From Chiloscyllium plagiosum (lineage: Eukaryota): a DNA stretch of 64,000 bases. This document shows, one piece after another, positions 1 through 61,187 of this stretch. The notes under the pieces were generated by a model. That model did not search any database and had not been told where the DNA came from. It worked only from the letters and a program-made list of their open reading frames with translations. The translations under genes were made by a program, and so were the position numbers. Position 1 is the first letter of the stretch. Each line of letters begins with the position of its first letter. The stretch covers positions 42,807,925-42,871,924 of the forward strand of contig NC_057719.1 of the NCBI RefSeq assembly GCF_004010195.1, given 5' to 3'.

Positions 1-95
1 TTCCTGCTGAAGAGCTTTTGCCTGAAATGTCTATTTTCCTGCTCCTCAGATGCTGCCTGACCTGCTGTGCTTTTCCAGTGCCACACATTTCGACC
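1..95 (+). mobile_element. Penelope-like element terminal repeat, family A (degenerate)
   Basis: Matches the 3' end of the PLE at 22096-22184 (ctgatgaagggcttttgcc..gaaa..gatgctgcctgacctgctgtgcttttccagc). Confidence 0.75.
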
Positions 96-2729: not shown

Positions 2730-3290
2730 CTCAAACACACTTTACCAAAACGCACACACACATACAACTCCATGGAGTGAATTTGCATTTGCAGATTTGT
2801 ATTTGCAGATACATTCTATTTTGTTCAAAAAGCACATAATCTGTAGGCAGTCAGTTCATCTGACATTTTATTAATTCCTACTTTGAAATAGAACCAGTCT
2901 GACTCAAAGTTGACAGACTCTAACCTCATGCCTTTAATGCATTTTCTGAGCAGAGATGTCACTTTTTTTATAAAAACTAAAGTTATTTCGGGACTGTGAC
3001 TTGAAAGAAGTTCTGGGATTTACATATTAATTAACCGAAACTTGAATCCCTATTCTGAGTGATTAAAGACTTAATAGCAATCTAGGTTTGTTTAATATAT
3101 CGCATCAGTTGTATGACATTTGACCTTTACTATAAATTCTGTGTCCTATGTCCTGTCCCAATCATTACCTGATAAAGGAGCAGTGCTCTGAAAGCTTGTA
3201 CTTTGCAATAAACCTGTTGGACTTTCAGCTGGTTTTGAGTGATTTTTAACTTTGTCCATCCTGGTCTAACACCAGCAACTCCACATCTCG
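2730..3290 (+). mobile_element. Penelope-like element 3' region (family C terminus)
   Basis: Ends cctgataaaggagcagtgctctgaaagcttg...aataaacctgttggact, the same terminus as 8098-8310 and 38869-38960. Confidence 0.65.
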
Positions 3291-7394: not shown

Positions 7395-8900
7395 ATAGGA
7401 ACAGGACTGTTCCATTCTGCATATTGAGCCCACTCTGCCATTCACTATCATCACTAATCAAACATTTCAATGCCTTTTACCCACATTATCCAATAATTCT
7501 TTAAACCATTAGTAATCAAGAATCTATCAATCTTGACTTTAAATATACTCACTCAGCTTCCTCAGCCTCTGGGATAGAGAATTTGAAAGATTCACCATCC
7601 TTTGAGTTAAAGAATGTTTCCTTATCCAAATTCTAAATGGAATCCCCTTATTTTTAAATTGTGCTCCTGGTTCTAGATTCTCCAACCAGAGGAAACATCT
7701 TACTTGTATCTATTCAGTCTATCTCTTTAAGTACTTTGCAGCTTTCAACTATATCACCTCTCTGTCTTTAAAAATCTAGAGAATACAGGCTCAGTCTATC
7801 CAATCTCTCTTCATAAGACAGTCTCCACATTGCAGAAACAAGTCTGGTGAATTTTCATTTAACTCTCTCTCTGGTAATAGTACCTTTTCCTCAAGTTCGA
7901 TGTTTTTCTTAACTCCTTTCGTTAACTGTAGATGGTGGGTCCTCCCTTCAAGATGGTTCTTGGTAGCAGGAATATATTTATTCTGGATACTCAAATATTC
8001 CCTAAAATGTTTGCTACTACATCTCGATTAATCTGTTCCCCGAGTCTTTTATATCACTTCACTTCAGCTCGATCAATTTTCATGCCCTTATAGGTGCCAA
8101 GTTAAAAATCACACAACACCAGATTATGGTCCAACAAGTTCAATTGGAAGCACTAACTTTAGGAGCACTGCTCTCTCATCAGGTGGTTTGAGGAGCAGCA
8201 CTCTGAAAGCTAGTGCTTCCAATTAAACCTGTTGGACTATAACCTGGTGTTTGTGTGATATTTTTAACTTTGTATACCCCAGTCCAACACCGGCATCTCC
8301 AAATCATGACTTATAATTGATGTTAGAGTCATAAAGGCCTTCAACATAGAAGAGGCTTCTTAAGCCATCGCATCTACACTGGTCAAAAACAACTACCTAA
8401 CTATTCTAATCCCATTTTACAACACTTGACCATAGCCTTTGCAAGTACACATATAAATACTTCTTAAATGGTATAAGGGTTTCTGCCTCTACCACTCTTA
8501 CAGGCATCAGTTCCAGATTTCACCACCCACTGAGTGAAAAAAAATCCTTATATCCCCTTTAAACCCTCTACCCTTGACCTTAAGTCTATGCCCCATTCAT
8601 CAAGCCCTCCACCAAGGGGGAAAAGTTCCTTCCTCTCTACCTTATCTATGTCCCTCATAATTTGTACATATCAAGCTCAGCTCCAAGGAAAGCAACCCTA
8701 GTCTATCCAATTTCTCTTCATAACTAAAACTCTCCAGTTCAGGCGACATTCTGACAAATCGCCTTTGCACCCTCTCCAGTGCAATCACATCTCTCCCATA
8801 ATGTGGATTCCAGAACTGTACATAGTAATCCAGCTGTGGCCTTACTGACATTCTATACAGTCCCAGCATAACCTCCATGCTCTTAAATTCTCTGCCTTTT
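7395..8900 (-). mobile_element. Cluster of decayed CR1 fragments (two 3' ends, ~7395-7880 and ~8320-8900)
   Basis: ORF 8642-8878 VRPQLDYYVQFWNP..ALERVQRRF and CR1-type 3' UTRs. Confidence 0.75.
8098..8310. mobile_element. Palindromic PLE family C mini-element
   Basis: aagttaaaaatcacacaacaccag..gtccaacaag is inverted to ..cctgttggactataacctggtg..tttttaactt. Centre carries ctgatgaga..gagcagtgctcc on -. Confidence 0.75.
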
Positions 8901-10381
8901 ATTTAGGTATAAAATATTAGTTAGACCCAATCTTCCTTTTAAACTGACATAAAGTTCAATCATATTGTGTTAACTGCTACCTAGTAGCTTATAACATTAG
9001 CAGGCTGAAAACAGACAAGGGTCTTAGGAGGAAAAAGGTAAAAATAGGAAGAGAACCAATTTCAATAATTTGATACGGAATTTGGAACAGCTGGATTGGA
9101 AATGAAGGTAAGCCAAAAAAAGAGTAAATGTGCAGAAAGTTTACTGAATTATTTACTGAATGACCCCCAAATAAAGAAATGGCTAACAACAAGATATCAC
9201 TTTTTTGCAAATGTTATTTTAGTATGAATCAAAGCTAATGCAAATAGCACATTAACAACAGGCAAGATGCTTCAAAGAAAAAGATAAATTTCACTTTAAT
9301 ACATTGATACAACAACAGTTTATCTTAGAAGACTTTGCACCATTTCCTACCCAGGCCCTGCCTCACAAATGTTGACAATATGTAACGACAAACCTACACC
9401 TTCTGATGTTCTTTATTCTCATAGGTAAGCTCAAGAGAGTTCTATCTGGCAACAGCTTTCATCTTTCAGCTTCATGGATGTGATTATCATCAGTTAAGCT
9501 CATTTCTATTACCTCTCTTGGGCCATGTAGTCCTGATGGTGTAATTAGAAAAGCAAAGGGAGGGCATGAAAGAATACTGTCAAGCAAAATCAATGTGAAT
9601 CCTAAGATGTTTTGTCAACACATGAAGGGTAAGAGAATAACTAAGAAAGAGTAGGACCCATAGAACACTAAGCAGGCAACTTAGATACAGAGGCAGAAAA
9701 CTTTAGTGTGGTTCTTACTTAATACTTTCCATCAGTCTTCACAAAAGAGAGTAGTGCAAATATTGTAGTAAAGGAGGAAGTATGTAACATATTGGACATG
9801 ATAATCACAGGGAATGGAGAAGTATGAATGGGATTAGCATCCCTGAAAGTGGATCAATCAACAGAATTAGTTGGAATGTACTCCAGACTCTTGAAAAGAA
9901 CCAGGGAAGAAATAGGAAGAAATCTGACCAATCCTCGTCAGATATGGATGTGATTGTGGAGGATTAAAGGATTGCAGATATTGTACCCTCATTTAAAAAG
10001 AGAGCAAGGAATAGGCCAAATATTTATTGGCAGGTAAGTCTATTCTCAGCAGTGGGAAAATGATCAAAATCAATTCTGAGACAGAAGATATACTATCACT
10101 TAGAACAGCACGGATTAATCAAGAATAGTCAGCATGGATTTGCTATAGGGAGTTTATGGCTGACCAATGTGAATTTTTTGTGGAAATAATATTGATAAGA
10201 GTAGCGCAGCTGAAGGAGGTCCACTTGAATTTAGTGAGGCTTTTAACAAAGTCCTGTCAGTGACTGGTTAAAGGAATAAAAGCACATGGGATTCAGGGAA
10301 TGTAGCAAGCTGGACTCAAATTTGGCTCAGTGGAATTGTCAGTGATTGTTTTTGCGTCTGGAAGGCTGTTTCTAGTGGATA

Positions 10382-10590
10382 AAGTGAGGTCTGCAGATGC
10401 TGGAGATCAGAGCTGAAAATGTGTTGCTGGAACAGTGCAGCAGGTCAGGCAGCATCCAGGGAACAGGAGAATCGACGTTTCGGGCATAAGCCATTCCTGA
10501 AGAAGGGCTTATGCCCGAAACGTTGATTCTCCTGTTCCCTGGATGCTGCCTGACCTACTGCGCTGTTCCAGCAACACATTTTCAGCTCTG
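10382..10590. mobile_element. Palindromic PLE family A mini-element with 16-bp TSD and hammerhead core
   Basis: 85-bp inverted arms at 10408-10492 and 10506-10590. TSD ctgtttctagtggata at 10366-10381 and 10588-10603. Confidence 0.9.
10497..10524 (+). ncRNA. Putative minimal hammerhead ribozyme core
   Basis: CTGAAGA-A-GGGC(TTAT)GCCC-GAAA-CG-TT: CUGANGA box, stem II, GAAA box, palindromic ACGT stem III and UH site. Confidence 0.65.
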
Positions 10591-11804
10591 TTTCTAGTGG
10601 ATAGCTTGTTATGATGGGATGAGGAAGGATAATCGGCTCAGTCTTTGTAACTTTCTCTCTGGGTTGTGACAAATATTTTCATCTCTTCTTATCACACAGT
10701 TGTCACACTTCATTACTAGCTTGCTGTAAAATGGAAGAATCAATTTATAAAGTTTTGTTGAGTGAAAGCAAGAGGCATTTTATCATCTACTAACCCTAAG
10801 AAGAGATAATAAAATGAAATATCACACACACAGGCAAGCACACAGGTAATAGGTCTTTTTTTAGAAAAGTTCATTGTATAGTATAAGCGGGGAGAATCAA
10901 AGTTAAACATTTTATAGAAGGGCTTAGAGTTCTTGAGTTATTAGATTAATCTGAGACCATGGTTGTTTAATGGCTGACTTGTATCCTCAGCAGTAGCAGA
11001 ATCTTTTGATATTTTTGATTCTTTGATGAATTGTTGTGTTTTCATCGTGTGCTGTTTTAAGCTGATGAGAGAAATGGCAGGTAGAGAGAGGGTCTATTAG
11101 TTCTTGCTCACAAATCCAGTTTTCCTTGTCTCTACTCTGCTGCTCAAAAACATAATTTGAAATATAGTTCAGTGTGTTTTCCAAAATCTAGCTCATTCTC
11201 CAAGCTGGTTATCTGGCAGGTAACCTTTCATCTCCCATTGTGTCAAATTCTCATACAAGTGTGATTTAAAACAGGAGATGCTTTTTTTCAAAAAATCACT
11301 GACCTAATTGCCTGATTGTGGTGTCTTTAGATATAAATTGTCATTCCAGTGCATAAAACTTCATTTATTCCATATAGATCTCACAAAGTATGTTGTAAGC
11401 AGTGGTCATGTGACAATTACAACCATTTGATGTTCATATTTTTTCCATCTTTAAAAACCATTTATTCCTCGAATGGTCTCAGGTTTAACAATTAGATCAT
11501 TGAAGTTATAATTCGTTATTTATTCCTATAGTAAGAAACTGTGGACAGCAGGAAGGTATCATTGGACTGATCAGGTGGGCAGAAAGTGGCAAATGGAAAT
11601 CAGGCCAGAAAGTGTGAGGTAAATGCATTTGGAGAGATTAACAAGGCAAAGGGACATAGAACTAATAGGAAAATATTAAGAGGCATAGATGAAGTGAGGG
11701 ACCCTGGAGTGAATATTGATAGGTAATATTGAAGGTAACATGTTTGGTTGATAAGGTGGTTAAGAAGACATAAGGAATAATTTCCTTTATTAGTATAGAC
11801 ACAG

Positions 11805-19870: not shown

Positions 19871-22184
19871 AGACTCCCGCCCACCTTCCGAGATTCCATC
19901 AAGACTCCCGCCCACCTTCCGAGGACCCCTTCACCTGCCTCCAACACACCCTATCCAACTGGACACCCCATACCAGTCTGTTAACCGTCCTCGACCTCTT
20001 TATTGCCAACTACTGCTGGGATATTGACCACCTCAACCTGTCCCCCCCCCCCCCACTCCAACCTCTCACCTTCACAACGCACAGTCCTCCACTCCCTCCG
20101 CTCCAATTGCAACTTCACCATCAAACAAGCGGGTAAGGAGTGTGCAGTGGTAGTTTGGCGCGCTGACGTCTACACCGCAGAAGCCAGGCACTAACTTGAA
20201 GACACCTCCTCTTACTGCTCCCTTGACCACAACCTCACTTCCCATTACCACACCATCATCTCTCAAACCGTACACAACCTCATCATCTCGGGGGATCTCC
20301 CACCCACAGCTTCCAACCTCATAGTTCGGGAACACCGCACCGCCCGGTTCTATCTCCTTCCGAAGATCCACAAGCCTGACTATCCCGGCCGACCTATCGT
20401 CTCAGCCTACTCCTACCCCACCGAGTTCACCTCCACATACCTCAATACAATACTATCCTATCCTTCCCCCCCACCACCACACCCCATGCCGGTCCAGGAA
20501 CTCCCCACATACATTCGGGACACCACCAATGCACTCTACCTCATCCAAGACCTCCGTTTCCCTGGCCCCCAATGCCTCATCTTCACCATGGACATCCAGT
20601 CCCTATACACCTACATCTGCCATGACCAGGGCCTCCAAGCCCTCCATTTCTTCCTCTCCCGATGTCCCCACCAGTACCCTTCCACTGACATCCTTACTTG
20701 TTTGGCTGAACTGGTCCTCACCCTCAATAATTTCTCCTTTGAATCTTCCCACTTCCTCCCGATGAAAGGAGTAGCCATGGGCCCCAGCTATGCCTGTCTC
20801 TTTGCTGGCTATGTAGAACAGTCCATCTTTCACAGTTACACCCACACCATGTCCCCCTTTTCCTCCGCTACATTGGTAACTGCATCGGCGTAACCTTGTG
20901 CTCCCACGAGGAGGGTGAACAGTTCATCAACTTCATCAACACATTCCACCCCGATCTTAAATTCACCTGGACCATCTCAGTTACCTCCCTCCCCTTTCTG
21001 GATCTCTCCACCTCCATCAATAGTGACCAACACAACACTGGCATCTTCTACAAACCCACTGATTCCACACCTACCTGGATTACACCTCCCCCTACCTTGC
21101 CTCCTGTAAAAATGCTATCCCGTATTCCCAATTCCTCTGCCACATCTGTTCCCAGGAGGACCAGTTCCACCACAGAACACACCAGATGGCCCCTTCTTTA
21201 AAGACCACAATTTCCCCTCGCACGTGGTTGATGATCCCCTCCAGCGCATCTCATCTTCTTCCCACACCTCTATCCTCCAACCACAACAAGGACAGAACAC
21301 TCCTGGTCCTCACCTTCCACCCCACCAACCTCCGTGTACATCGTATCATCCTCCGCCATGTCCACCACCTACAAACGGACCCCACCACCAGAGATATATT
21401 TCCCACCCCACTCCTATCCACTTTCCATAAAGACCGTTCCCTCCACAACTGCCTCGTCAGGTCCGCGTCCCTTAACAACCCACCCTCCCTTCCCGGAACC
21501 TTCCTCTGTCACCACAGGAATTGCAAAACCTGCGCCCACACCTCCCCCCTCACCTCTGTCCAAGGCCCCAAAGGAGCCTTCCACATCCATCAGAGATTTA
21601 CCTGTACTTCCACACATATTATTTACTGTATCCGTTGTCTCCTCTACATTGGGGATACAGGACGCCTTCTCGCAGAGCGCTTCTGAGAATGTCTCTGGGT
21701 CACCTGCACCAACCAACCCCACTGCCCCATGGCCGAACACTTCAACCAAGGACTTGTAGGTCCAAGGCCGCCTCCATCACCACTCCCTAACCACCCGACG
21801 CCTGGAGGAAGAACACCTCATCTTCTGCCTCGGGACCCTCCAACCCCATGTGGATTTCACCAGTTTGCTCATTTCCCCTCCCCTCACCTTATCCTAGTTC
21901 CAACCTTCCAACTCAGCACCACCTCATGACCGATCCTACCTGTCAATCTTCCTTCCCACCTATCCGTTCCACCCTCCCCTCCGACCTGTCATCTTTACCC
22001 CCACCTCCATTCATTTATTGCACTCTCAGCTACTTTCTCCCCTTCACCACCCCCTCCCACTTATCTCTCCATTCCCAAAGTTCCCAGCCTCATTCCTGAT
22101 GAAGGGCTTTTGCTTGAAACGTCAATTTTCCTGCTTCTCGGATGCTGCCTGACTTGCTGTGCTTTTCCAGCACCACACTCTCGA
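19871..22184 (+). mobile_element. Penelope-like retroelement (decayed RT + GIY-YIG endonuclease), 5'-truncated, family A terminus
   Basis: RFYLLPKIHKPDYPGRPIVS, FTMDIQSLYT, KGVAMG, LPFLDL and CTSTHIIYCIRC..LYIGDTGR, with many stops and frameshifts. TSD ctgtgtcaa at 19862-19870 and 22185-22193. Confidence 0.92.
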
Positions 22185-22199
22185 CTGTGTCAACTTTAG

Positions 22200-29584: not shown

Positions 29585-29897
29585 TGCCTTTAGGGAATCT
29601 TAATCTCACATTCACACTTATAATTGCATCTGGAAGGATTTTGTCAAAAGTTAAATAAGGAAAGCAGATTAAAGTAAGCCACTATATTATTGAAAATGAG
29701 CTATCACTGGCAGGTATATTTTGAAATAACTTCTAGCACTATGATTAAAGACAAACTGTGCTGTTAATGTAATTTTGAATTTCAGTTGGTACAAACATTG
29801 TGAATTAAGATTAATTACCTGAATTATTGCATTTCTTTATGTTCTCACTGATGGGATGTTGTGAGTGAAACAATGAGTCAGACAACCTAAGGTTATT

Positions 29898-30045
29898 GAA
29901 ACAAAAACAGAAAGTGTGCAGAGATTCAGCACATCTGGCAGCATCTGAAAATCAGTTAACATTTCTCTGTTTATCGATGCTGCCAGACCTGCTGAGTTTC
30001 TCAAGAATTTCTGTTTTTGTTTCAGATCTCCAATGACTACAGTTC
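29898..30045. mobile_element. Palindromic PLE family B mini-element
   Basis: aaacaaaaacagaaa..cagcacatctggcagcatc is inverted to gatgctgccagacctgctga..tttctgtttttgttt. Confidence 0.75.
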
Positions 30046-31086
30046 TTTATATTATTCACGCACCAGCTATAATGTTGCAGCAAATCAATCCCCATTTCAT
30101 TGTGAAGCTTGAAAATGTTGTATAAACAGAAACTAACAATCCTAGCCTTAGATCAACAACCCAGACCTTCAATCCCCAGCAACTATATTTGAAACCTTGA
30201 CTGAATGTCATCCTCAGCAGTTCAAGTTCAGGAAAAAACATGGGGAGAACTTGAAACATTATCATGTCATAAAATAGTGATCTGATCATCTGGCTAAGCT
30301 CCTTTCGCTGCTGTTGAAAGGATAATCATGAATACTGCGTTTGGCCCAATTAAGTGTCAAGTAATTTTCCTTCACTATTGACCATCACTTTACACATTCC
30401 ATATCTCTGGTGAATGCATTCTGCGCTTTGTAATGGCAGAACGTGAGTTTACTAAATTTGTTGTTTCTAGCAGTTCCACTGTAAAATGCACCAAATTTGG
30501 GTTAGATCCATCAGTATGGATCAACTCTCCAAATTCTATGAAGTCAAGACTGATTCACTCTCAGTTTATCCAGTGCAGTGTGAATGAAAAGAATGTGTCC
30601 AGTATAATCTTGTCCAATGCAATGATCCACCCAGTAAGCTCATATTCAATTATCTTGTTTTTTTTTAGGAAAAGCAAAATTATTTCTAGTTTGAAGTGAA
30701 ACCAATCTTCATAAGGTTGGTGGTACAGAACAGCAGCCTAATCACTAGTAAAGCCCTCTATTTAATGAATCGTGTAAGCTATGTGATTTGTAATTTTTTA
30801 AAAGGTTGATCATAAGCACAATCATATCAACTAATGACATCAGTAGTCCGACCCTCACTATCCCCGATAGAAAAACTGGTCAATCATTTCATTTACTGTT
30901 TATGTGGGGCCTCTGTGTGCAAAGTTAGCTAACCTATTTACTTACATAATAATAATGGTAATTCTAACATAATTGCTGTGACATTTAAGATGTCCTAAGA
31001 AAAGGATAAGGCTCTGTATAAATGCAAGTTATTCCCTTCTCTAAGATATGTAAGTTTTGTAGGTTTGGGGACATTCAATATATTGC

Positions 31087-37894: not shown

Positions 37895-38960
37895 GAGCCA
37901 TCGCTGATGATGAAAATCTCGCCAAGATCATCCCAAGCCCCCACTTCTCACCTTCAAACAACTGCCAGAACTTAAAAAGACCCTCATTCACAACAAACTA
38001 CCCAGCCTTCAGATTAACATCGATCACAATACTACACAACTCTGACATGGCAACCTCTCCAAGACATGCCAGATCATCAACATGGATATCACACGTGGGA
38101 ACACCACCCACCACGTACATGGCAGATACTCATGTGACTCGGTCAGTGTTGTCTACCTCATACGCTGCAGGCAAGGATGCCCTAAGACATGGTATAATGG
38201 TGAGACCTTGCAGACGCTATGACATAGATGAATGGATACCACGGAGCAATCGCCTGACAGGGAAACACTTCAGCAGTCAAGGACATTAAGCCTATAATCT
38301 TTAGGTAAACATCCTCCAAAGCACCTTCAAGATCCACAGCAACGCAGAATCACCGAGCAGAAACTGATAGCCAAGTTTCATATCATTGTTGATGGCCTCA
38401 ACCATAATCTTGGGATCATGTCATGCTACAGGTACCTCCCCCCCCCCCACCAAACTGGTCTGTATCAATAAAATCTTCTGTACTGTCCTGCTTTAACACC
38501 ATCACCTTGATAACTTGTTATGCTGTCTCTACATTAATTAGTTTGTAGAGTTTTGGATTACTTGTTACTTTGGTTAGACCCTCAGCAGGTGACTCTTATA
38601 CCTATCATGTCATTCTAGCCATTTGGTTTGCTTCCAGCACAAACTTGTTTTTAATTTTTTGTAATTGTCTCTCTGCCTCAATTAGTTGGATTATAGGTCA
38701 TCCCTTCACTTACTTTTCATCTGTTGATATTTTACTCACACTGTTTGACACTTTTGATCACCTGCAAAGACTTATTATTCAATTTGTCCACACTCTACTC
38801 ACACCATTTGTATGATATTTTGATCTCTCTGCCTGTAAATTCTCTGCCTGTGTGCGTTTCTTCACTTCACCTGATGAAGGGGCAGTTTTTTGAAAGCTTG
38901 TGATTTCAAATAAACTTTTTGGACTACAACCTGGTGTCATGTGACTTCTGACTTTGTTTA
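37895..38960 (+). mobile_element. Penelope-like element 3' part (GIY-YIG relic + family C terminus)
   Basis: SCDSVSVVYLIRCRQGCPKTWYNGETLQTL* at ~38130-38222 and terminus cctgatgaaggggcag..gaaagcttg at 38870. Confidence 0.8.
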
Positions 38961-39586
38961 CCAGCTAAAAGCAATACCATGACAATAAGACAACAGGCAG
39001 AGCCGATGGAGGAATAAATCAGGGGAGAATTCAAGGTCTGAAGTTGTCAAAATGGCCATTACAGAAAATGAGGTGCTGTTCGATAAACCTACACTGGGTT
39101 TCACTGGAACACTAGTCATCTGCCATTTCAAAAATTTAAAAGCACGCCCCGACCATCCATTTGCTTGCTGTTTCATTAGCTTTTTTGACTGGTTGAGGAC
39201 TGTAAAAATGATCCTGACCTCCCAGTCACTTGCCATTTCAATTAGACTGGGTGACCACTTTGTGGAACATGGTTGCTCTCTGCACAAGCATGACTGATGT
39301 TGTTTGCCATTTCAGAACACCATCCTGTTTTCATGCACATATTTTGGTCCTAAGCACACTGTAGTTTCTCCAGCATTTCCTCTGCAGGTACTGACAAAGA
39401 GTTTGGGGACAGCAGCAGCCTGACACAGATATAGCATAACAAGCAAGGCAGATCCCTGGAGTTGGTGAACTGGTTTGACCGCATTGTTCTCCTCATAGAG
39501 CACTTACAGTGTGGAAAGAGATCTTCAGCGCATCAAGTCCATACCCAACCTCCAAAGAGTATCCCACTTGGACCCACCTCCCTAAA

Positions 39587-40343: not shown

Positions 40344-41205
40344 ACTTCCCTATCCTTGTAACCCTACATTTCCCATGACTAATCCAGCTAGCCTATATAG
40401 TTAGTGTCCCTAAACACTATGGGGCATTTAGCATGACCAATTCACCTAACCTGTACATCTTTAGACTGTGGGAGGAAACTAGAACACCCACAGCAAACCC
40501 ACACAGACACAGGGAGAATGTGCAATCTCCATGCTGACAATCACCTGAGACTGGAATTGAACCCAGGTCTCTGGGTCTGTGAGGCAGCAGTGCTAACCAT
40601 TGAGTCGCCGTACTACATCTGAATCCCTCCTTCCAATCATCAAGGCAGGATACTGAATTACAGATTCATAAAATCCCTATAGGTTATTTAGCCTATCAAG
40701 TCCACTATGACCCTCTTAAGAGCATCCCACCCAGACACACACCCCTACCTTATCCATGTAACCCTGCATTTCTCACAGCTAATCCACCTAGCCTACACAT
40801 CTCTGAACACTATGGCCTATTAAGCATGGCCAATCCACCTAATCTGCACATCTTTGAACTGAAAGACTGTCAGCAGAATAGCCCCAGAACAGGATGGCAT
40901 GGTGACTCAGTGGCTCGCACTGCTGACTCACAATTCCACAGACCCGGGTTTAATTCCAGCCTTGGACAACTGTCTGTGTGGGTTTCAATCAGGTGCTCTG
41001 GTTTCCTCCTACAATCCAAAGATGTGCAGATTGGGCAGATTGGCCAAGTTTAATTGCCCATGGTGTCCAGGGATGTGCAGGCTATGTGGATTAGCTACGG
41101 GAAATGTAGGGTTATAGGGAGTGGGTCTGGGTAGGTGTTCTTTGGCGGGTAGGTGCAGGTCAATGGGCTGAATGGCCTGCTTCTATACTGTAGGGATTCT
41201 ATGAC
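40344..41205. mobile_element. Cluster of three HE1-like SINEs (two on -, one on + at ~40893-41205)
   Basis: A/B boxes and shared body caaagatgtgcagg(t)taggtg(a/g)attggcca. Confidence 0.85.
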
Positions 41206-43110: not shown

Positions 43111-43914
43111 TGTAGTCTCGCTTCATAATAGCTACTCCATGGCCCACAGAGAGGTACATCCCTGGCAATGACAATGCCTAACACTGTGGCTATACTGTTT
43201 GAAAGTGCGTCTCCACCCTAAAATGACCAGGGTCTGCTACTTTAACTTACCTGGAGCCGGAGCTATTTTAACTTACCAGGCCTTTGAAGATGTGTCCATT
43301 AAGTTAGGTGCAGCTCTTGTTTTTAACCTCTGGTGGCAGGACATGATCAGTGAAGGAAAAAACAATCAGCCCCAAGTCGAACGAGCAACTCAGCAATGTA
43401 TAGCCTACTGACTGTGGAGTCAGAAGTGATGTGCCAGCTCTGGACATTGTTGTTTAAGGTTTTGAAGTCACTAACAGCGTGAAGAATCCAAAGAGAAGCA
43501 GAAAAAAAATGTGGAATACTGAGTATAACCTTTCTGAAATACTAAGAATAAATTAATGTCTCAATTTAAGAGTATTTTAAGAAAGGAGCAGCAGGCAGCA
43601 TTCCTCACAAAAGAAAAGCTCTGTTTAAACTGGATGCTTGAGGAAAAAAAATGTGCAGAGCTGAATTGAAGCTGGAAGAAATCTGCTCTAAAATCTATAA
43701 AAAACAGTGAAAGAAGGGAAACAGTTCTGAAGCCTGAGACAGTCAATTAAAAATCATGATTTTTTTTAAAAGATCAGAAATTCTGGCTGTTGCCATTTTG
43801 GAAATGGAAAAAAGCATGAATCCAACATTTTATCACAAGTCAGAAAGTAATCAAAAAAGAGTTCTTCTGCTTAAAAATGTTGGAGAATCTGTTGGAAAGT
43901 CTAAATAAAAACCA

Positions 43915-44445
43915 AATGAACTGCAGATGCTGTGAATCAGAGACAAAAATACAAATTACTGGAAAAGCTCAGCAGGTCTGGCAGCATCTGCAGAGAGAAA
44001 TCAGAGTTAATGTTTCGGGTCCAGTGACTTTCCTCTGTTCTAAGGAAGGATGACTGTACCCAAAACACAATGGTGGCTCAGTGGTTAGCACTGCTGCCTC
44101 ACAGACCCAGGTTCGATTCCAGCCTTGGACGACTGTCTGTGTGGAGTTTGCACATTCTTCCCTATGTCTGTGAGTTTCCTCCGGGTGCTCCAGTTTCCTC
44201 CCACAGTCCAAAAATGTGCAGGTCAGGTGAATTGACCATGCTAAATTGCCCATAGTGTTAGGTGCATTAGTCAGAGGGAAATGGGTCTGGGTGGGTTACT
44301 CTTTGGAGGGGCGGTGTGGACTGGTTGGGCCGAAGGGCCTGTTTCCACTCTATAGGGAATCAATCTGTCTATCTATTAACTCTGATTTCTCTCCACAGAT
44401 GCTGCCAGACCTGCTGAGCTTTTGCAGCAATTTCTATTTTTGTTG
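43915..44445. mobile_element. Palindromic PLE family B element with an HE1-like SINE (~44069-44372, +) inserted in it
   Basis: Arms agctcagcaggtctggcagcatctg..agagaaatcagagttaat and attaactctgatttctct..cagatgctgccagacctgctgagct flank a complete SINE. Confidence 0.85.
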
Positions 44446-45029: not shown

Positions 45030-45595
45030 TATAGACCATAAGACCATTAGATATAGGAACAGAATTAGGCCATTTAGCCCATCAAAGTTCTGCCATTTAA
45101 TCATGACTCAATCCCCTTCTCCTACCTTCTCCCCGTAACTTTTGATCCCCTTACTAATCAAGCACCTATCTAGCTATGGGTCAAGATTAGAGTGGTGCTG
45201 GAAAAACACAGCAGGTCAGGCAGCATCCGAGGAACAGGAAAATCAACATTCCGAGCAAAAGCCCTTCATCAGGGCCAAAAGGTCGATTTTCCTGCTCCTC
45301 GGATGTTGCCTGACCTGCCGTGCTTTTCCAGCACCACTCTAATCTTGACTCCAACCTCCTGCATCTGCAGTACCCACTTCTACCTATCTAGTTATGTCTT
45401 AAATACACTCAATAACTTGGCCTCCACAGTCGGCTGTGGCAACGGGTTCCACAGGTTCACCATTCTCTGGCTGCAGACATTCCTCCACATCTCGATTCTA
45501 CAGGGTTGTGCCTTCACTCTGAGGCTGTGCATTCGGGTCCTAGTTTCTCCCACTAGAGGTAATAGCTTTTGGGTGTCCACTCCATCCAGGCTGCT
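45030..45595 (-). mobile_element. CR1 3' fragment hosting a family A hairpin
   Basis: ETRTRMHSLRVK..SQRMVNLWNPLP and (TGGTCTTA)-like tail. Confidence 0.8.
45179..45381. mobile_element. Palindromic PLE family A mini-element with 15-bp TSD
   Basis: Arms tcaagattagagtggtgctggaaaa.. / ..ttttccagcaccactctaatcttga. TSD acctatctag(c/t)tatg at 45164-45178 and 45382-45396. Confidence 0.85.
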
Positions 45596-51149: not shown

Positions 51150-53983
51150 CCTGGAAGGCAGGTCAGGGAGACAATCTGGAAGGGGAAATAGCTGGAACTG
51201 ATCACAAAGTGTTGTATCCACTGCCTTCCTCAAAATTCTGCATAGCACATTTGTTGAATGTCCACCGGTAGCTGGGTGCCTCACAGTCTAGTACAAATCA
51301 AGCATGCTGTGCACACTCTGCCCACCTGAAAATGATACAGTTCTACAATTGATGTGCATATGTAAGGAGCTTATTACCAAAAACCGGTGGAAGTACATCT
51401 TACTCAAGTTGTCACCTTTCCCATATTGCTTGTGAACCTCCCAGAATGGGCAGTGGACCACCTGGATGCTGCCTCTAATAAGGAAATCTGTGCCCTATTA
51501 TGCTTTGTGCTGGTTGTACAAGTATCTATCACTTCCCTGGCATTGAGCTGATGTCTGTTCTGTGATAGCTAGAAACAGAGGTGGCTTTTGTAATGAGACA
51601 GTGAGGAACTGGAGTTCACTGATTGCTCGGTCTAACTCTGTCTTCATTGCAATGTCCCTGTATGCTCCATAAACATGATTCTCCTAAACCCTTCACTCAT
51701 GCAATTAGGCAACAGCAGACAGCCAGCCTCATCACATCACCATGACTGCTCTAGGTCCAATTTCCATACCACTTCACGCCCTTCAGGGCTTTACTTTGGA
51801 GCTCAGAGCTACCTAGAACTTACACTCTTCTGCCAATTTGCTTTGTGTGCAGCGATAAAATATGCATCTAAATAGGATGGATGTAGCATATGGCTTTTAA
51901 CTTTCAATCTTAACACTCACTCACTTTGTACTTAGTTGGAAGTTGCCAGACTCTCAGACTTGCATTGCTCTTTGGTGCAGAGGGAGAGGCAGGCAACTTG
52001 TCATGGAGGTTAGCCATGAACAGTCAAGAGGTGAACATGTTGCTGTTCAGCACCAAGCTGTGTCAATTTCACACCTATGACATGTACTGGTAGCTTATGT
52101 GGCAAACATACTGCATGTACTTCAGCCAAATGGCCATGTCTGTAAGTTAAAGTGGAGCAGTGTTTATTAGGGTGCTCCTGATTGTAGCACCCAGTCTTCC
52201 TGAGAGAAAGACGCACATAGATTGAGATTGAGATCCTTTGTCTCCCTTTTGTTTTCCCATTGATGCTGAACACCTATGGCTAGAGTGATGGAGTGCAGGT
52301 CCATGTGTATATCTAACAGAGACTGAGTTTGCAGGACCTGACCCTCCAGATTGGCAATAACCTGTCCACAGAAACAGGCAGACACACATATGCTAGAGAT
52401 AGCAGGACAGTGATACATTGGGGGCCTCCTCCATCCTTCATTCCAATTTACCAAGTGCCTCTGACAAATCCTAAGCCTATCTTTGCATTTTTGACCAAGA
52501 AATAATGGCCAAGGCCATGGGATCGTCTTCTGCCCCGGTGCTGAGCATTTGTCTAGTCTTTGGCAAAAGTCTGAGTGTCAGTAACTGGGGTCATTTCATC
52601 GTCAACCAACCATGGAGGCACGTCAGCGATGTACTCACCATATTGTGCTCCTGAGTCTAACCCAGATAGAATACCCTACCGAGGTTAAAATCCTTCAAGC
52701 TGCTGGAGGGTGCAGGTGAAAGCCTTTCTGTACATCCTCCAGGTTCAGTGCTTCCTCCTCAGATGTGGAGAGCTGGAGTCAAAACTCAGATCTCCAGTCC
52801 GAGCTTATTTTTGTCTGATGTTCCCTTGGATCCATTAGTGCCTGCATAAGAGAACAGAGGGAATGAATTGTTCTAAGAGAGAAAAATTTATGCAGGTTAA
52901 AATTGAGTTGATACTGGTGGTACTGGCAATGCAACATTGGTTGCACATTGAGGTCTGTCTGTCTCCACATGAGCGGAGATGGTATTTGTCAGCTAACTTT
53001 ATGAATTTTTCTCTTCAAATGGAGTGATGATGTCCACCATGCCACCATCAGTTTTGGCCCTCTCAACCCAGATGTGGGCCAGCTTTTCCTGCAGTGTGAG
53101 ACAAAGGGAGGAATTGAGTATGCTGTCAGTGGATGGAAGTGGTGACTCAGGAGGTTAAGAGGTGTGTGATGGACCTAGTGAGTGGGGAAAGAAGTGCAGA
53201 GAATGAGAATAGTTAATAGTTTGGGAGGATGCTCTGGGTAAGAGCCATTGAGTGAACATTTTGCATACAATAGTGACAGTTGTAATTCCTGAACCTAGGT
53301 GAGAGGCATGTATGGTGGCAGAGTTAGGCCCTGTGAGTGAATGGGAGCAGTGAGAAAATGGTGGTACTTACCCTTGCAAAATGTGGAAGTTCATTGACCT
53401 TTTTTCTTGCACTATGGAGAGTTTCTTTTGCCAATGGCACAGCACTGACCTGGATCACTATCTTAGTTCAGAATGGATGTGTCTGATGACATGGTCAGTG
53501 GGATACCATCTTCTCAATCACTCCATCCACCATCACCTCTCATCCCTGAAGGTACAGCTAGGTGGGTGATGGCATCCTTTTCTGGGCCATGTGCTCAGCT
53601 GTAAATGTTAAGTAATGCAATACAAGGCCCAATCCCTGGTTTGCAGCATCTGAAGTAGTGTACAGCTGGGCTTTCAGTATGGTGCCAGAAGATCCTGGCA
53701 CTGGTGAGCAATCTGCCTCTCCTGCTATGTGATTCCACAACAAGGTAAACAAAAAGGCCAGTTGCATATTTAATCAGATAAACAGTGGAAGATGCATGAC
53801 AAATGTTACTGTAAGCTATGATGGACTGGGTGCTATGTATCTTAAAATCTTGCTCATGCCCGAAACGTCAATTCTCCTGCTCCTTGGATGCTGCCTGATC
53901 TGCTGCGCTTTTCCAGCAACACATTTTCTGCTATGTATCTTACTCAACATATCACTTTAACTTAAAATTCAAACATTCAGCCC
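51150..53983 (-). mobile_element. Second probable Harbinger-like remnant
   Basis: Reverse strand ~53365-53480 reads IVIQVSAV..CKKKVNELPHFAR followed by GTAAGT, homologous to 23410-23520. End GGGCTGAAT at 53983. The left boundary is uncertain. Confidence 0.45.
53845..53928 (+). mobile_element. 84-bp 5'-truncated PLE family A insertion with perfect 14-bp TSD
   Basis: tgctatgtatctta at 53831-53844 and 53929-53942. Insert reads atgcccgaaacgtcaattctcc..ggatgctgcctga. Confidence 0.85.
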
Positions 53984-54149: not shown

Positions 54150-55990
54150 AGGGCTGCTTGCATGCCAAACAGCATAAGCAGTAAGTGATAGACAGACCTA
54201 AGCGATCCCACACCAACAGATCAGATCTAAACTCTGCCATCCTGCCACATCTTGTCATGAATGGGTTCAGACAGTTAAACAGTTCACTGGTGAAGAAAGC
54301 TCCAGAAATATCCCCATTCTCAATGATAGGGCCAAAATATCAGGGCAAAAGATCCGGCTGAATCACTTACAAAAACCTTAACCAAAAGTGTCAAGTGACC
54401 TCACCCAGAGGTTCTCCATTTCATTGATGTCAATCTTCAGCCAATTCAATTCATTCCATGTAATATTAAGTGGCTGGAGACATTGATTAGTGCAAAGGCT
54501 TTGGGCCTTGATAACATTCAAACATTAGTACTGAAGACTTGCACTTTAGAACTTTCCACTTCCCTAGCCATGTAGCTACAGCACTAGCACATTGGTTAGG
54601 TATGTCCAGTACAAAAGAAGTGAGACAAAACTAATCCAGCCAATTACTGCCCCATCAGTCAATTTTCGAACATGATGGAAAGTGTCATCAACAGTGCTAT
54701 CAAAGAGCACTTGCTTAGCAATAATTTGCTCACTGATATTCAGTTCGGATTCTGCCATGACCACTCAGCTCCTCATCTAATTACATCCTTGGTTCAAACA
54801 TGAACAAAAGAGATGAGGTAAGTGTGACTGCCCTTGACACCAAGGCTGCATTTGACCAAGCATGACATTAAAGAGTCCCAGCAAAACTGGAGAGAAAGTG
54901 AATCGAGAGAAAACTTTTCATTGATTGGAGTCATACCCAGCATGAAGGAAGTCAGGTTTGGTTATTGGAGGTCAATCATTTCAACAAGAGCACATCTCGA
55001 CAGGAATTCCTGAGGGTTATGTTCTAGGCCAAAGCATCTTCAGCTGCTTCATCAATGACTTTCCCTCTGTCATAAGGTCAGAAATTCTGTTGTTTAAGGG
55101 TGATTGCACAATGTTCAACACCACTCATAACGGCTCAGAAACTGGAGCAGTCCATGTCCTGGGCAATATCTAGATTCAGACTGACAAGTGGCAAGTAACA
55201 TTCATGCCACACAAATGTCAGGCAATGACCATTTCCAAGAAGAGAGAATCTGATCATTTCTCCTTGACAGTCAATGGCATTACCATCTCTGAATTTCTCA
55301 CTATGTACATCCTAGGGGTCACCATTGACCATAAATTGAATTGGAAGTGTGATGCTGGAAAAGCACAGCAGGTCAGGCAGCATCCGAGGAACAGGAGAAT
55401 CGATGTTTCAGGCAAAAGCCCTCCTTGATGAAGGGCTTTTTCCCAAAACATCGATTCTCCTGCTCCTTGGATGCTGTCTGACCTGCTGTGCTTTTCCAGC
55501 ACCACACTCCCAAATCTAATCTCCAGCATCTGCAGTCCTCACTTTCACCATAAACTGAACTGGACTAGTCACATTAATACAGTGGCTATGGGAACAGTTC
55601 ACTCACCTCCTGTTTCCTCAAAGCCAATCCACCATCTACAAAGAGAGTATGGAATACTCTCCATTTGCCTGAGTAAGTGTAGCTTCAACAGCACCCCAGA
55701 AACCCACAAAAATTACCATTTCAAAGGACAATGGCAGCAGATGCAATAGAAACACTAGCACCTCCAATTTCCCCACTAAACTACTCACCAGCCTGATTTT
55801 GAAATGTTAATAATCTTTCTCTGTGGCTGGATCAAAATCCTGGAATTTCCTCCTGAATGGCACCATGGATCTACGGCACATGGCCTGCAATGGTTAAAGA
55901 AGGTAGTTCACCACCACCTTCTCAAGGGCATCTAAAGATAGGCAATAATTGCTGGCTCAGGAGCAACATTTACATACAGTGAATGACCAA
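54150..55990 (+). mobile_element. L2/CR1-clade LINE RT relic
   Basis: NPANYCPIS, QFGF, LDTKAAFDQ, GIPEGYVLGQSIFSCFINDFPS and ILGVTIDHKLNW motifs. Confidence 0.8.
55346..55546. mobile_element. Palindromic PLE family A mini-element with 18-bp TSD
   Basis: Inverted arms around cttgatgaagggc. TSD accataaa(t/c)tgaa(t/c)tgga at 55328-55345 and 55547-55564 duplicates HKLNW of the host LINE. Confidence 0.88.
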
Positions 55991-60061: not shown

Positions 60062-61187
60062 CTGAAATGTCAAATATAAGAAACAAAGAACATCAAGGAA
60101 TTTAAGTTTAACTTCACAATTTTTCTGATCAATATTCAATTCTACCCCACATAGTTTTAATACTGCTTTCTGTTCAATGTGAATGGACATTAGAACATCT
60201 AGACTGGTGCTACCAGACCTGCCGAGTTTCACCAACAATTTCTGTTTTTATATCACATCTCCAGCACCCACAGTTTTTTTGTTTTGTTATAAATCTAGGC
60301 TATTACATTGAACGTTATCCTTCTGCATGCTATTTAATTTTCACTGTGTGCACTTTATTGTAGGTAGATTTATGGTTGACCAATGCTTTCCGCCTTCTTT
60401 CTCAAGCAATTCTTTCACTAATGCTTTAGTGTGTGTCTTCTGTTTAGTTACATTGTCAGCAAATTTGTAAATAACTGATTGTGATATTGATTATTTCAGA
60501 ACAGCATTAAATTTTGCCCAGATCATAATAAAACTGATAAACTCGAGAAATGGTTCAAATTCTTTGCTAAGGCTCAATGATCTGGTCCTAGAGGAATGAA
60601 TCCCAGTTTCAGAAACATTCCCATGCATTACTGAAATCACATTTTCTTCTCAGATTCATTTGTGTGGCTTCTAATGACTCCAGTTTGTTTAGCACTATTA
60701 TATAGTTAACAATGATTGTTGAACATAATGTTCTGAATGTTTCATGTACAAATTTCTTTCATCGTATCTACTTCAAAGCATTCTGAGGCCAAACCCATAT
60801 CAACATCTCTGGTGCTAATTCATCTGCCAGCCATGCAGAGCTTAATATTTCTAAATTAATATCAATTTTATGATAATTTAATGTGTTATCTAAAATTTTA
60901 TCCATCATCAAATGTAATCCAGTTTTGGGATGAAATGACTTTCTGAATTACAGGTGGTCGGAGGCAGGGGAACACTGACCGTGAGAGTGCGTGCAATCAG
61001 TTTTACACCACATTCAATTTTATTCTGCTTGGTGTTCAAAGGGAGGTCAGCCTGCCAAGAAAAATTCCACCATCCCAGATATGTTAGCTTAAATATTTCA
61101 AATTGAGCCAGAGTTATTGTATGACCAAATAACCTCCTACAATATTAGAAACTTGAATATCAAATGTCATTACATTAATAACAGTAC

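What the first reader, a model, noticed from the sequence alone, without database searches (positions are those of the whole stretch)
10366..10603. Recurrent ~200-bp fold-back mini-elements that insert as units, with the ribozyme core at the hairpin apex
Seen: this copy has 85-bp arms with 3 mismatches, a 13-nt loop containing CTGAAGA and a 16-bp TSD. The same architecture recurs at 45179-45381 (15-bp TSD), 55346-55546 (18-bp TSD), 8098-8310, 29898-30045 and 43915-44445, across three families. The symmetry axis falls at or next to the hammerhead core, and one arm carries an extra ~30-nt terminal tail. The two arms of a copy share variants absent from some other copies. Established: PLEs often have inverted terminal repeats. 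Inference: these are either a non-autonomous ribozyme-defined hairpin retroposon class or snap-back products formed at each insertion. Either way they seed long dsRNA hairpins into host transcripts. This is the best candidate here for an under-described system.
Basis: partly seen in the sequence, partly recalled or inferred. Interest (0 to 1): 0.75.

Follow-up and report, generated by a model that had tools for sequence, protein, structure and literature searches.

The report
Twin-primed Penelope retroelement hairpin scars
This 220-base hairpin is one of many head-to-head pairs of short end-pieces of a Penelope-type jumping gene, a layout already known for that class; the ends of the pieces indicate that each hairpin is likely built anew at insertion, when both cut DNA strands copy the element's RNA up to its likely capped start just before the ribozyme, which makes the class's unsolved integration mechanism testable.

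Summary
In detail: 85-bp arms with 3 mismatches, a 13-nt loop and a 16-bp TSD. It is two head-to-head, 5'-truncated ends of a Neptune-type Penelope-like element (PLE); an RT + GIY-YIG ORF carries the same end elsewhere in the genome. In 864 kb of unselected genome, 56 head-to-head and 0 tail-to-tail pairs were found in three families, 50 with exactly one tail. The hairpins do not move as units: junctions differ (19 types in 20), the arms share subfamily variants (43 of 45 against 22.5 expected), and each outer end shows its own microhomology with the TSD. Inner ends do not sit at the ribozyme cut; they pile up 31 nt upstream, at an initiator-like A that is often preceded by an untemplated G, on either arm or on both. 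Best reading: both strands of a ~15-nt staggered cut prime cDNA at the two known start sites, both cDNAs run off a capped RNA 5' end, and they are joined. The layout is published; I found this mechanism in no paper searched. The scan noted the same thing earlier on other DNA. Host dsRNA effects are only hinted at.

The parts
10366..10381 (+). Target-site duplication, left copy (16 bp); its last 5 bases match the element's tail end at 4 of 5 positions
10382..10407 (-). One-sided tail: RNA between the two RT start sites (element positions about +94..+119, counting C of CUGA as 0)
   Evidence: tail as in PMC8557442 Fig. 2 legend and PMC11167929
10408..10496 (-). Tailed arm, body (+93 down to +5/+9); lacks the CUGA core
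10492..10496 (.). Junction microhomology between the two cDNA ends (4 of 5 match); this junction type is 7 of the first 100 rows of a genome-wide junction pattern
   Evidence: counted by eye
10493..10493 (+). A at -4: most common 5' boundary of the family, in an initiator-like TCATTCC; likely transcription start
10493..10590 (+). Tail-less arm (-4 to +90/+93), with a complete minimal hammerhead
10497..10524 (+). Minimal type I hammerhead motif: CTGAAGA 10497-10503, stem II 10505-10516, GAAA 10517-10520, triplet GTT (GTC in most copies) with the predicted cut after 10524; base-paired away in the hairpin fold
   Evidence: sequence, motif scan, fold; architecture as in PMC4209133
10588..10603 (+). 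Target-site duplication, right copy; its first 3 bases are shared with the arm end
45164..45396 (.). Older subfamily (B) fold-back with 15-bp TSD, tail on the right
55328..55564 (.). Older subfamily (B) fold-back with about 18-bp TSD, tail on the right
8098..8310 (.). Family D fold-back, tail on the right, no TSD found
29897..30048 (.). Decayed family C fold-back, no core at the apex, no TSD found
43906..44445 (.). Family C fold-back, interrupted by an interspersed repeat (about 44066-44370) inside the right arm's hammerhead

Best explanation
The hairpin is two head-to-head copies of the same short end of a Neptune-type Penelope-like element between 16-bp target duplications, and it was likely made in a single insertion in which both strands of a staggered cut primed reverse transcription. 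Inferred steps: (1) the GIY-YIG endonuclease cuts the two strands about 15 nt apart, leaving 3' overhangs; (2) one overhang pairs by a few bases with the RNA near +120..+126 and the other near +87..+91, and the stretch between these sites is the one-sided tail; (3) each cDNA runs through the uncleaved hammerhead and off the RNA's 5' end at the A at -4, likely a capped Pol II start, often gaining an extra C; (4) the two cDNA 3' ends are trimmed and joined through microhomology or filler, and the gaps are filled. When one cDNA is lost, a single arm with or without tail remains. The ribozyme lies at the apex because it begins right at the RNA start, not because it cuts there. The hairpin itself is likely a dead end and not a mobile unit.
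For: Shown: PLE partner ORF (RVT_1 E 9e-8; GIY-YIG E 2.5e-4; Cys linker) followed by the same end. Unselected 864 kb: 56 head-to-head and 0 tail-to-tail pairs, 50 of 56 with exactly one tail; 70 single A/B arms split 34 tail-less / 36 tailed. TSD in 37 of 42 young pairs from two searches, mean 15 nt, and in 10 of 10 young pairs of the unselected sample; null 0 of 124. End overlap with the TSD at the tail-less end averages 1.97 nt against 0.73 simulated, 0 of 10,000 null means as high. 19 distinct junctions in 20 typed. Arms agree at non-CpG subfamily sites (43/45 vs 22.5 expected; 28/34 vs 19.1; 21/24 vs 13.7; 16/19 vs 9.9; 29/30 vs 16.3) but not clearly at CpG sites, with equal allele frequencies in both arm types. 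The most supported listed 5' loose end is -4 in three runs. Extra G before -4: 5,322 exact genome matches (1,071 of them ambiguous) against 3,500 for A and T together at 40% GC. Of 30 such loci, none continues upstream, and 4 singles have the G outside the TSD. The G sits on 17 tail-less and 13 tailed arms, and on both arms at three picked loci. Literature: two RT start sites define the tail, both strands are cut and extended, a dimer is predicted, and uncleaved RNA is the main substrate (PMC11167929).
Against: No copy in which the pLTR runs on into the ORF was found among about 70 ORF-bearing loci, so the source RNA (5' leader of full-length mRNA, or a short transcript) is not identified. RNA reads showed no pile-up of molecule starts at -4 (table 6 empty; a polyA single-cell library, 2% read, is a weak test). 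The extra G could be terminal-transferase activity at any RNA end. Many ends read C at -5, and family D ends spread over -3..-9. PMC11167929 found no target-RNA homology at initiation in vitro, unlike the microhomology here. The high arm agreement fits one RNA used twice as well as two RNAs. TSDs were found in only 1 of 11 C pairs and 5 of 15 D pairs (older copies).
Confidence: 0.72

Rival explanations
1. Twin priming is right, but the -4 boundary is not a transcription start. It is set by the ribozyme or its bound protein: the RNA is trimmed by a 5'-3' exonuclease up to stem I, or the RT stops at a telomerase-like template boundary.
For: In families A/B and C the boundary coincides with the 5' edge of stem I, and in D it lies within 9 nt. 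The sequence just upstream of -4 resembles the tail end, so it could be a second protein site (sequence). No RNA start pile-up.
Against: An untemplated G precisely before an A in a YYANWYY context is what cap copying predicts. An RT block at a structure would stop at the structure's 3' edge, near +30 (inference).
Confidence: 0.12
2. One molecule folds back on itself: either snap-back of a single cDNA, or self-priming on an antisense template as proposed for head-to-head PLE palindromes (PMC3846280).
For: Arms nearly always share subfamily alleles. Junctions use microhomology inside the palindromic stem II and loop (28 of the first 100 rows at +14..+16). Transcripts from both strands exist.
Against: A self-copy cannot add the tail to one arm. 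Both outer ends sit at the two start sites that single arms also use, each with target microhomology. Three loci have both arms ending at -4 with the extra base and filler between them, one of them with arms of different alleles.
Confidence: 0.08
3. The hairpin is a non-autonomous element that is transcribed and reinserted whole, or a MITE-like unit.
For: Some junctions recur (28 and 7 of the first 100 rows). The whole structure lies within one TSD. Fold-back junction reads exist in polyA RNA (12 reads, 10 starts).
Against: 19 of 20 junctions are distinct when the query has no junction. The window's junction occurs in both polarities and on both +68 alleles, with tail-less ends that vary. No arm-specific non-CpG alleles. 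The termini are unequal and the TSD length varies from 9 to 20.
Confidence: 0.05
4. Hammerhead self-cleavage makes the RNA 5' end that the cDNAs run off.
For: About 12 of the first 100 junction rows have the second arm starting at +26..+32 (by eye). An earlier scan note on another genome reports such a signal.
Against: Only 1-2 of 100 start exactly at +28, and at least one arm usually keeps the whole core. PMC11167929 found cleavage unnecessary in vitro.
Confidence: 0.03

Closest known systems
Complex insertions of EN+ Penelope-like elements: inverted 5'-truncated copy plus 30-40 bp tail (PMC8557442; PMC3846280; PMC2377424)
   Same: Head-to-head inverted copy at the 5' end, tail on one end only, TSD around the whole unit, hammerhead in the pLTR, palindromic or overlapping junction.
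   Different: Here both partners are cut down to about 90 and 125 nt with no ORF, and such pairs are about a quarter of all loci (56 of 206). Their inner ends share one boundary with an extra G. TSDs average 15 nt, against 8-10 bp in the A. vaga examples read.
PAc (Poseidon of Anolis) in vitro system (PMC11167929)
   Same: Two RT start sites whose spacing is the tail; both strands cut and extended; uncleaved hammerhead RNA as template; predicted dimer.
   Different: Different clade (Neptune-type linker here). That paper did not link the two start sites to opposite strands or to inverted products, and saw no primer-RNA homology; the genomic copies here show 1-7 nt.
Non-LTR (animal) retrozymes (bioRxiv 10.64898/2026.07.22.740005; PMC7229834 seen as listing only)
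   Same: Short, non-coding, hammerhead-bearing sequence related to PLE pLTRs.
   Different: Retrozymes are head-to-tail monomers or tandems thought to move through circles. These are head-to-head pairs bounded at -4 and not at the cut site.
L1 twin priming (recalled, not read here)
   Same: Both target strands prime cDNA; the inversion is joined by microhomology within one TSD.
   Different: In L1 the second primer lands upstream on the same RNA, so the two pieces do not overlap. Here both cDNAs cover the same RNA stretch and start at two fixed sites about 35 nt apart.
MITE
   Same: Short, non-coding, high copy number, inverted repeats, TSD.
   Different: Unequal ends, variable junction and TSD length, single-arm forms are common, and the sequence is the end of an RT-encoding element.

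Membership tests
EN+ Penelope-like element (Neptune clade) | Single ORF with RT and C-terminal GIY-YIG endonuclease, followed by the same terminal sequence | tested here: met
   L161 (754-aa open frame): RVT_1 E 9.1e-8; GIY-YIG E 2.5e-4 (21.7 bits, just under the 22.6 cut-off); family A end follows at 91% identity. Done for family A only.
EN+ Penelope-like element (Neptune clade) | Cys-rich linker (CX2-5CxxC) between RT and EN | tested here: met
   CNRRRCNTC in the L161 translation; motif as given in PMC8557442
EN+ Penelope-like element (Neptune clade) | RT phylogeny places it in Neptune | not tested
   No tree was built
EN+ Penelope-like element | Minimal hammerhead in the pLTR | tested here: met
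   Core, stem II, extra base after A9 and palindromic stem III seen in the sequence, matching PMC4209133; no Rfam hit; cleavage not tested
EN+ Penelope-like element | Inverted 5'-truncated copy and one-sided 30-40 bp tail, with TSD | tested here: met
   50 of 56 pairs have exactly one tail; TSD counts
EN+ Penelope-like element | Partial tandem (pLTR running into the ORF) in full-length copies | tested here: inconclusive
   None found among about 70 ORF-bearing loci, all 5'-truncated or gapped
MITE | Symmetric terminal inverted repeats, uniform structure, fixed TSD length | tested here: not met
   Unequal ends, 19 of 20 junctions distinct, TSD 9-20 nt
Non-LTR retrozyme | Head-to-tail monomers bounded by the cut site | tested here: not met
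   Boundary at -4, head-to-head pairs; a tail end running directly into the core was 1 of 91 occurrences
Non-LTR retrozyme | Circular RNA | not testable with these tools
   Only one informative polyA run was available
Unit-mobile hairpin retroposon | Shared junction, shared ends and arm-specific variants across copies | tested here: not met

The most novel reading that the evidence does not exclude
PLE integration is a double-ended, two-RNA reaction of a dimer: each subunit primes one target strand at its own start site. The 130-nt piece from the cap site to the tail keeps the start site, the ribozyme and both RT start sites, so single minis and hairpin arms act as their own Pol II-driven, SINE-like templates. 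This has filled the genome with about 10^5 hairpins, some of them transcribed and A-to-I edited.
Probability: 0.3. Interest if true: 0.7.

Novelty: new variant of a known kind. Interest (0 to 1): 0.5.

Why it matters
How PLEs, the retroelements closest to telomerase, integrate is unsolved; the papers read call the inverted repeats and the tail unexplained, or propose antisense self-priming. These mini-insertions are a very large natural record (about 66 pairs per Mb in the sample, roughly 235,000 if extrapolated) that ties the tail, the inversion, the TSD and the RNA start to one model. That model makes direct predictions for the existing in vitro system. It also argues that the ribozyme cut does not define the template. 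Any effect on host dsRNA or editing remains open.

Tried and rejected
Rfam at gathering score: 0 hits in the window. At E<=5 over 8000-11000, only sub-threshold hits, mostly miRNA hairpins, rejected as generic hairpin matches. The first genome search contained the junction, so its 22 non-redundant loci are biased; junction counts use the junction-free search. Cap-G test on held loci was inconclusive and was redone genome-wide. Search for the pLTR-ORF junction: one search used host flank by mistake; reached about 1,050 nt upstream of the RT query without meeting a pLTR read-through. Sequencing runs: no RNA holder on record was listed; X20 laid 0 reads (no test). No empty-site allele was seen among the joints listed for the window locus (241 more not shown), and there were no RNA reads on its flanks in 2% of X19. 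Strand-specific A>G in X19 at three positions (41/262 vs 1/146, 21/90 vs 0/96, 27/66 vs 0/47; DNA contigs about 1% or less) fits editing, but the reads come from many paralogues and one non-editing change is also RNA-enriched, so it is not counted as evidence. A possible 3' splice site at about -25 has no cluster of ends. Look-up of look-alike windows by place gave nothing. The three text supplements of PMC11167929 held none of the terms searched; its figures S1-S2 were not seen and may bear on 5' ends. bioRxiv supplements are closed. Rows dropped before counts: BLAST hits ending before +30, pairs more than 60 nt apart counted as singles, 2 of 22 pairs that could not be typed, arms with under 35 aligned sites.

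Full report
Observation. The focal copy is as described: a 16-bp duplication at 10366-10381 and 10588-10603, arms 10408-10492 / 10506-10590 with 3 mismatches, a 13-nt loop and a tail on the left. It folds at -176.7 kcal/mol, z -24.7; in that fold the hammerhead is paired away. Two further copies have TSDs (15 bp; about 18 bp). For 8098, 29898 and 43915 my test found none, 29898 has no core at the apex, and 43915 is stretched by a later insertion. Positions below count the C of CUGA as 0; the predicted cut follows +27.

What it is. The arms are the end of a PLE. A locus from the first search held an RT fragment beside the same end. That fragment gave 25,562 first-look candidates in the 3.56-Gb genome, of which 150 were scored. 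L161 has a 754-aa frame with RVT_1, a Cys linker and a GIY-YIG match just under cut-off, followed by the family A end. The motif CTGANGA-stem-GAAA-palindrome matches the minimal hammerheads of metazoan PLEs (PMC4209133, parts 1-2 of 4 read); Rfam does not detect it. Partner ORFs for families C and D were not sought.

How general. I took 800 kb by coordinates from 13 contigs and added the window (864 kb, 15 kb of N). Families A/B, C and D gave 100, 51 and 55 loci, with 30, 11 and 15 head-to-head pairs and no tail-to-tail pair; 28, 8 and 14 of the pairs have exactly one tail. Single A/B arms end either at +77..+97 (34) or at +111..+125 (36). Outside the window there are 52 pairs in 785 kb, about 235,000 if extrapolated. 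TSDs: 19 of 30 A/B pairs, 10 of 10 young ones, 1 of 11 C, 5 of 15 D, and 0 of 124 mismatched flank pairs.

Units or made anew. With a query that had no junction, 22 of 30 loci (the window's copy included) had an inverted partner; 20 could be typed and gave 19 junctions. The window's junction recurs, but in both polarities and on both +68 alleles. Arms of one copy differ less than arms of different copies (young A, non-CpG: 0.019 against 0.034-0.041). They agree at non-CpG subfamily sites in all families (43/45, 28/34, 21/24, 16/19, 29/30; expected 22.5, 19.1, 13.7, 9.9, 16.3), while CpG sites show little or no excess agreement, which argues against later conversion. Allele frequencies are equal in tailed and tail-less arms. 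So both arms come from the same source at insertion and the hairpin has no lineage of its own.

Both ends are primed. In 37 of 42 young pairs with a TSD (9-20 nt, mean 15), the tail-less arm stops mostly at +86..+91 and the tailed arm at +120..+126. The overlap with the TSD averages 1.97 and 1.14 nt; a simulated blunt insertion gives 0.73 for the first, with 0 of 10,000 means as high (the tail end was not simulated). Nothing common follows +126 in 69 copies. PMC11167929 (parts 1-2 of 4 read) reports two RT start sites whose spacing is the tail, extension of both strands and a predicted dimer, but no target homology in vitro.

Where the inner ends lie. They cluster at about -5..+2 in A/B and C and at -9..-2 in D. 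Reads and contigs laid on a longer copy show -4 as the best-supported listed 5' loose end in three runs (98, 98 and 53) and a several-fold rise in depth there. The base is the A of TCATTCC, an initiator-like sequence (consensus recalled). Genome-wide, exact arms reaching -4 are preceded by G 5,322 times (1,071 of these in one ambiguous junction) and by A or T 3,500 times together, at 40% GC. None of the first 30 G-class loci continues upstream (two of them look like one duplicated locus); in 4 singles the G lies outside the TSD, in 3 inside it. It sits on 17 tail-less and 13 tailed arms. At three loci picked for it, both arms end this way with filler between them, one with discordant alleles. 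Among the first 100 of 1,005 junction matches, counted by eye, 28 join by AT(G) microhomology at +14..+16, 7 are the window's type, about 12 start at +26..+32, and only 1-2 at exactly +28. I infer run-off at a capped start and not at the ribozyme cut.

Host RNA. PolyA reads of one run cover the element on both strands and include a fold-back joint (12 reads, 10 starts). None lie on this locus's flanks, and three strand-specific A>G positions are suggestive only.

What is known. The inverted truncated copy, the tail and the TSD are published (PMC8557442, passages; PMC3846280, parts 2-3 of 5 and passages; PMC2377424 and PMC8969392, passages). PMC3846280 explains head-to-head palindromes by self-priming on an antisense template; PMC8557442 leaves the mechanism open. 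PMC9977147 (passages) notes very short PLE insertions, median 128 bp, in an alga. The retrozyme preprint (passages) links pLTRs to tandem forms. Nine searches showed no paper that describes twin run-off hairpins or a cap-derived G in PLEs; the library lacks most subscription papers and I saw no figures. Earlier notes of this scan report the same reading on other DNA (352 findings hold the words searched, 8 shown); they are not independent evidence.

Verdict. Real, a PLE product of known layout, made at each insertion; the mechanistic signal is worth testing. New variant of a known kind; interest 0.5.

Noticed in passing
window 9900-10381: The left flank translates to a decayed LINE-type RT stretch (CR1-like by recalled motifs); the hairpin is inserted in it.
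   Followed up: no
window 44066-44370; also about 6184, 22592, 40413-40604, 40806-41066: An interspersed repeat with a tRNA-like head (SINE by appearance) has several copies; one splits the family C fold-back inside its hammerhead.
   Followed up: partly
window 40348-41138: Nested inverted pairs of that repeat, arms 47-132 nt at 74-81%; another possible dsRNA source.
   Followed up: no
L021:1480-1491 versus 1608-1621: The sequence just upstream of -4 (CACTTTCCTC) resembles the tail end (CACTTTCTCCTC); weaker likenesses exist in families C and D. Possibly a duplicated protein-binding site; unexplained.
   Followed up: no
L021:1460-1471: A polypyrimidine tract plus AG about 25 nt upstream of the core looks like a 3' splice site; D. 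virilis Penelope has an intron ending at helix I (PMC4209133). No insertion ends cluster there.
   Followed up: partly
L349, L174, L027, L116: Long copies show the same inverted arrangement at larger scale: an inverted tail piece before a 5'-truncated ORF, an inversion inside the RT, and arms reaching -76 or further.
   Followed up: partly
L190: A family D arm directly follows a family A tail end: nested insertion or template switch between families.
   Followed up: no
window 5-86, 21979-22189, 53852-53940, 1999-2096, 60208-60285, 3001-3287, 38868-38962: Single arms of the same three families, with and without tail.
   Followed up: partly
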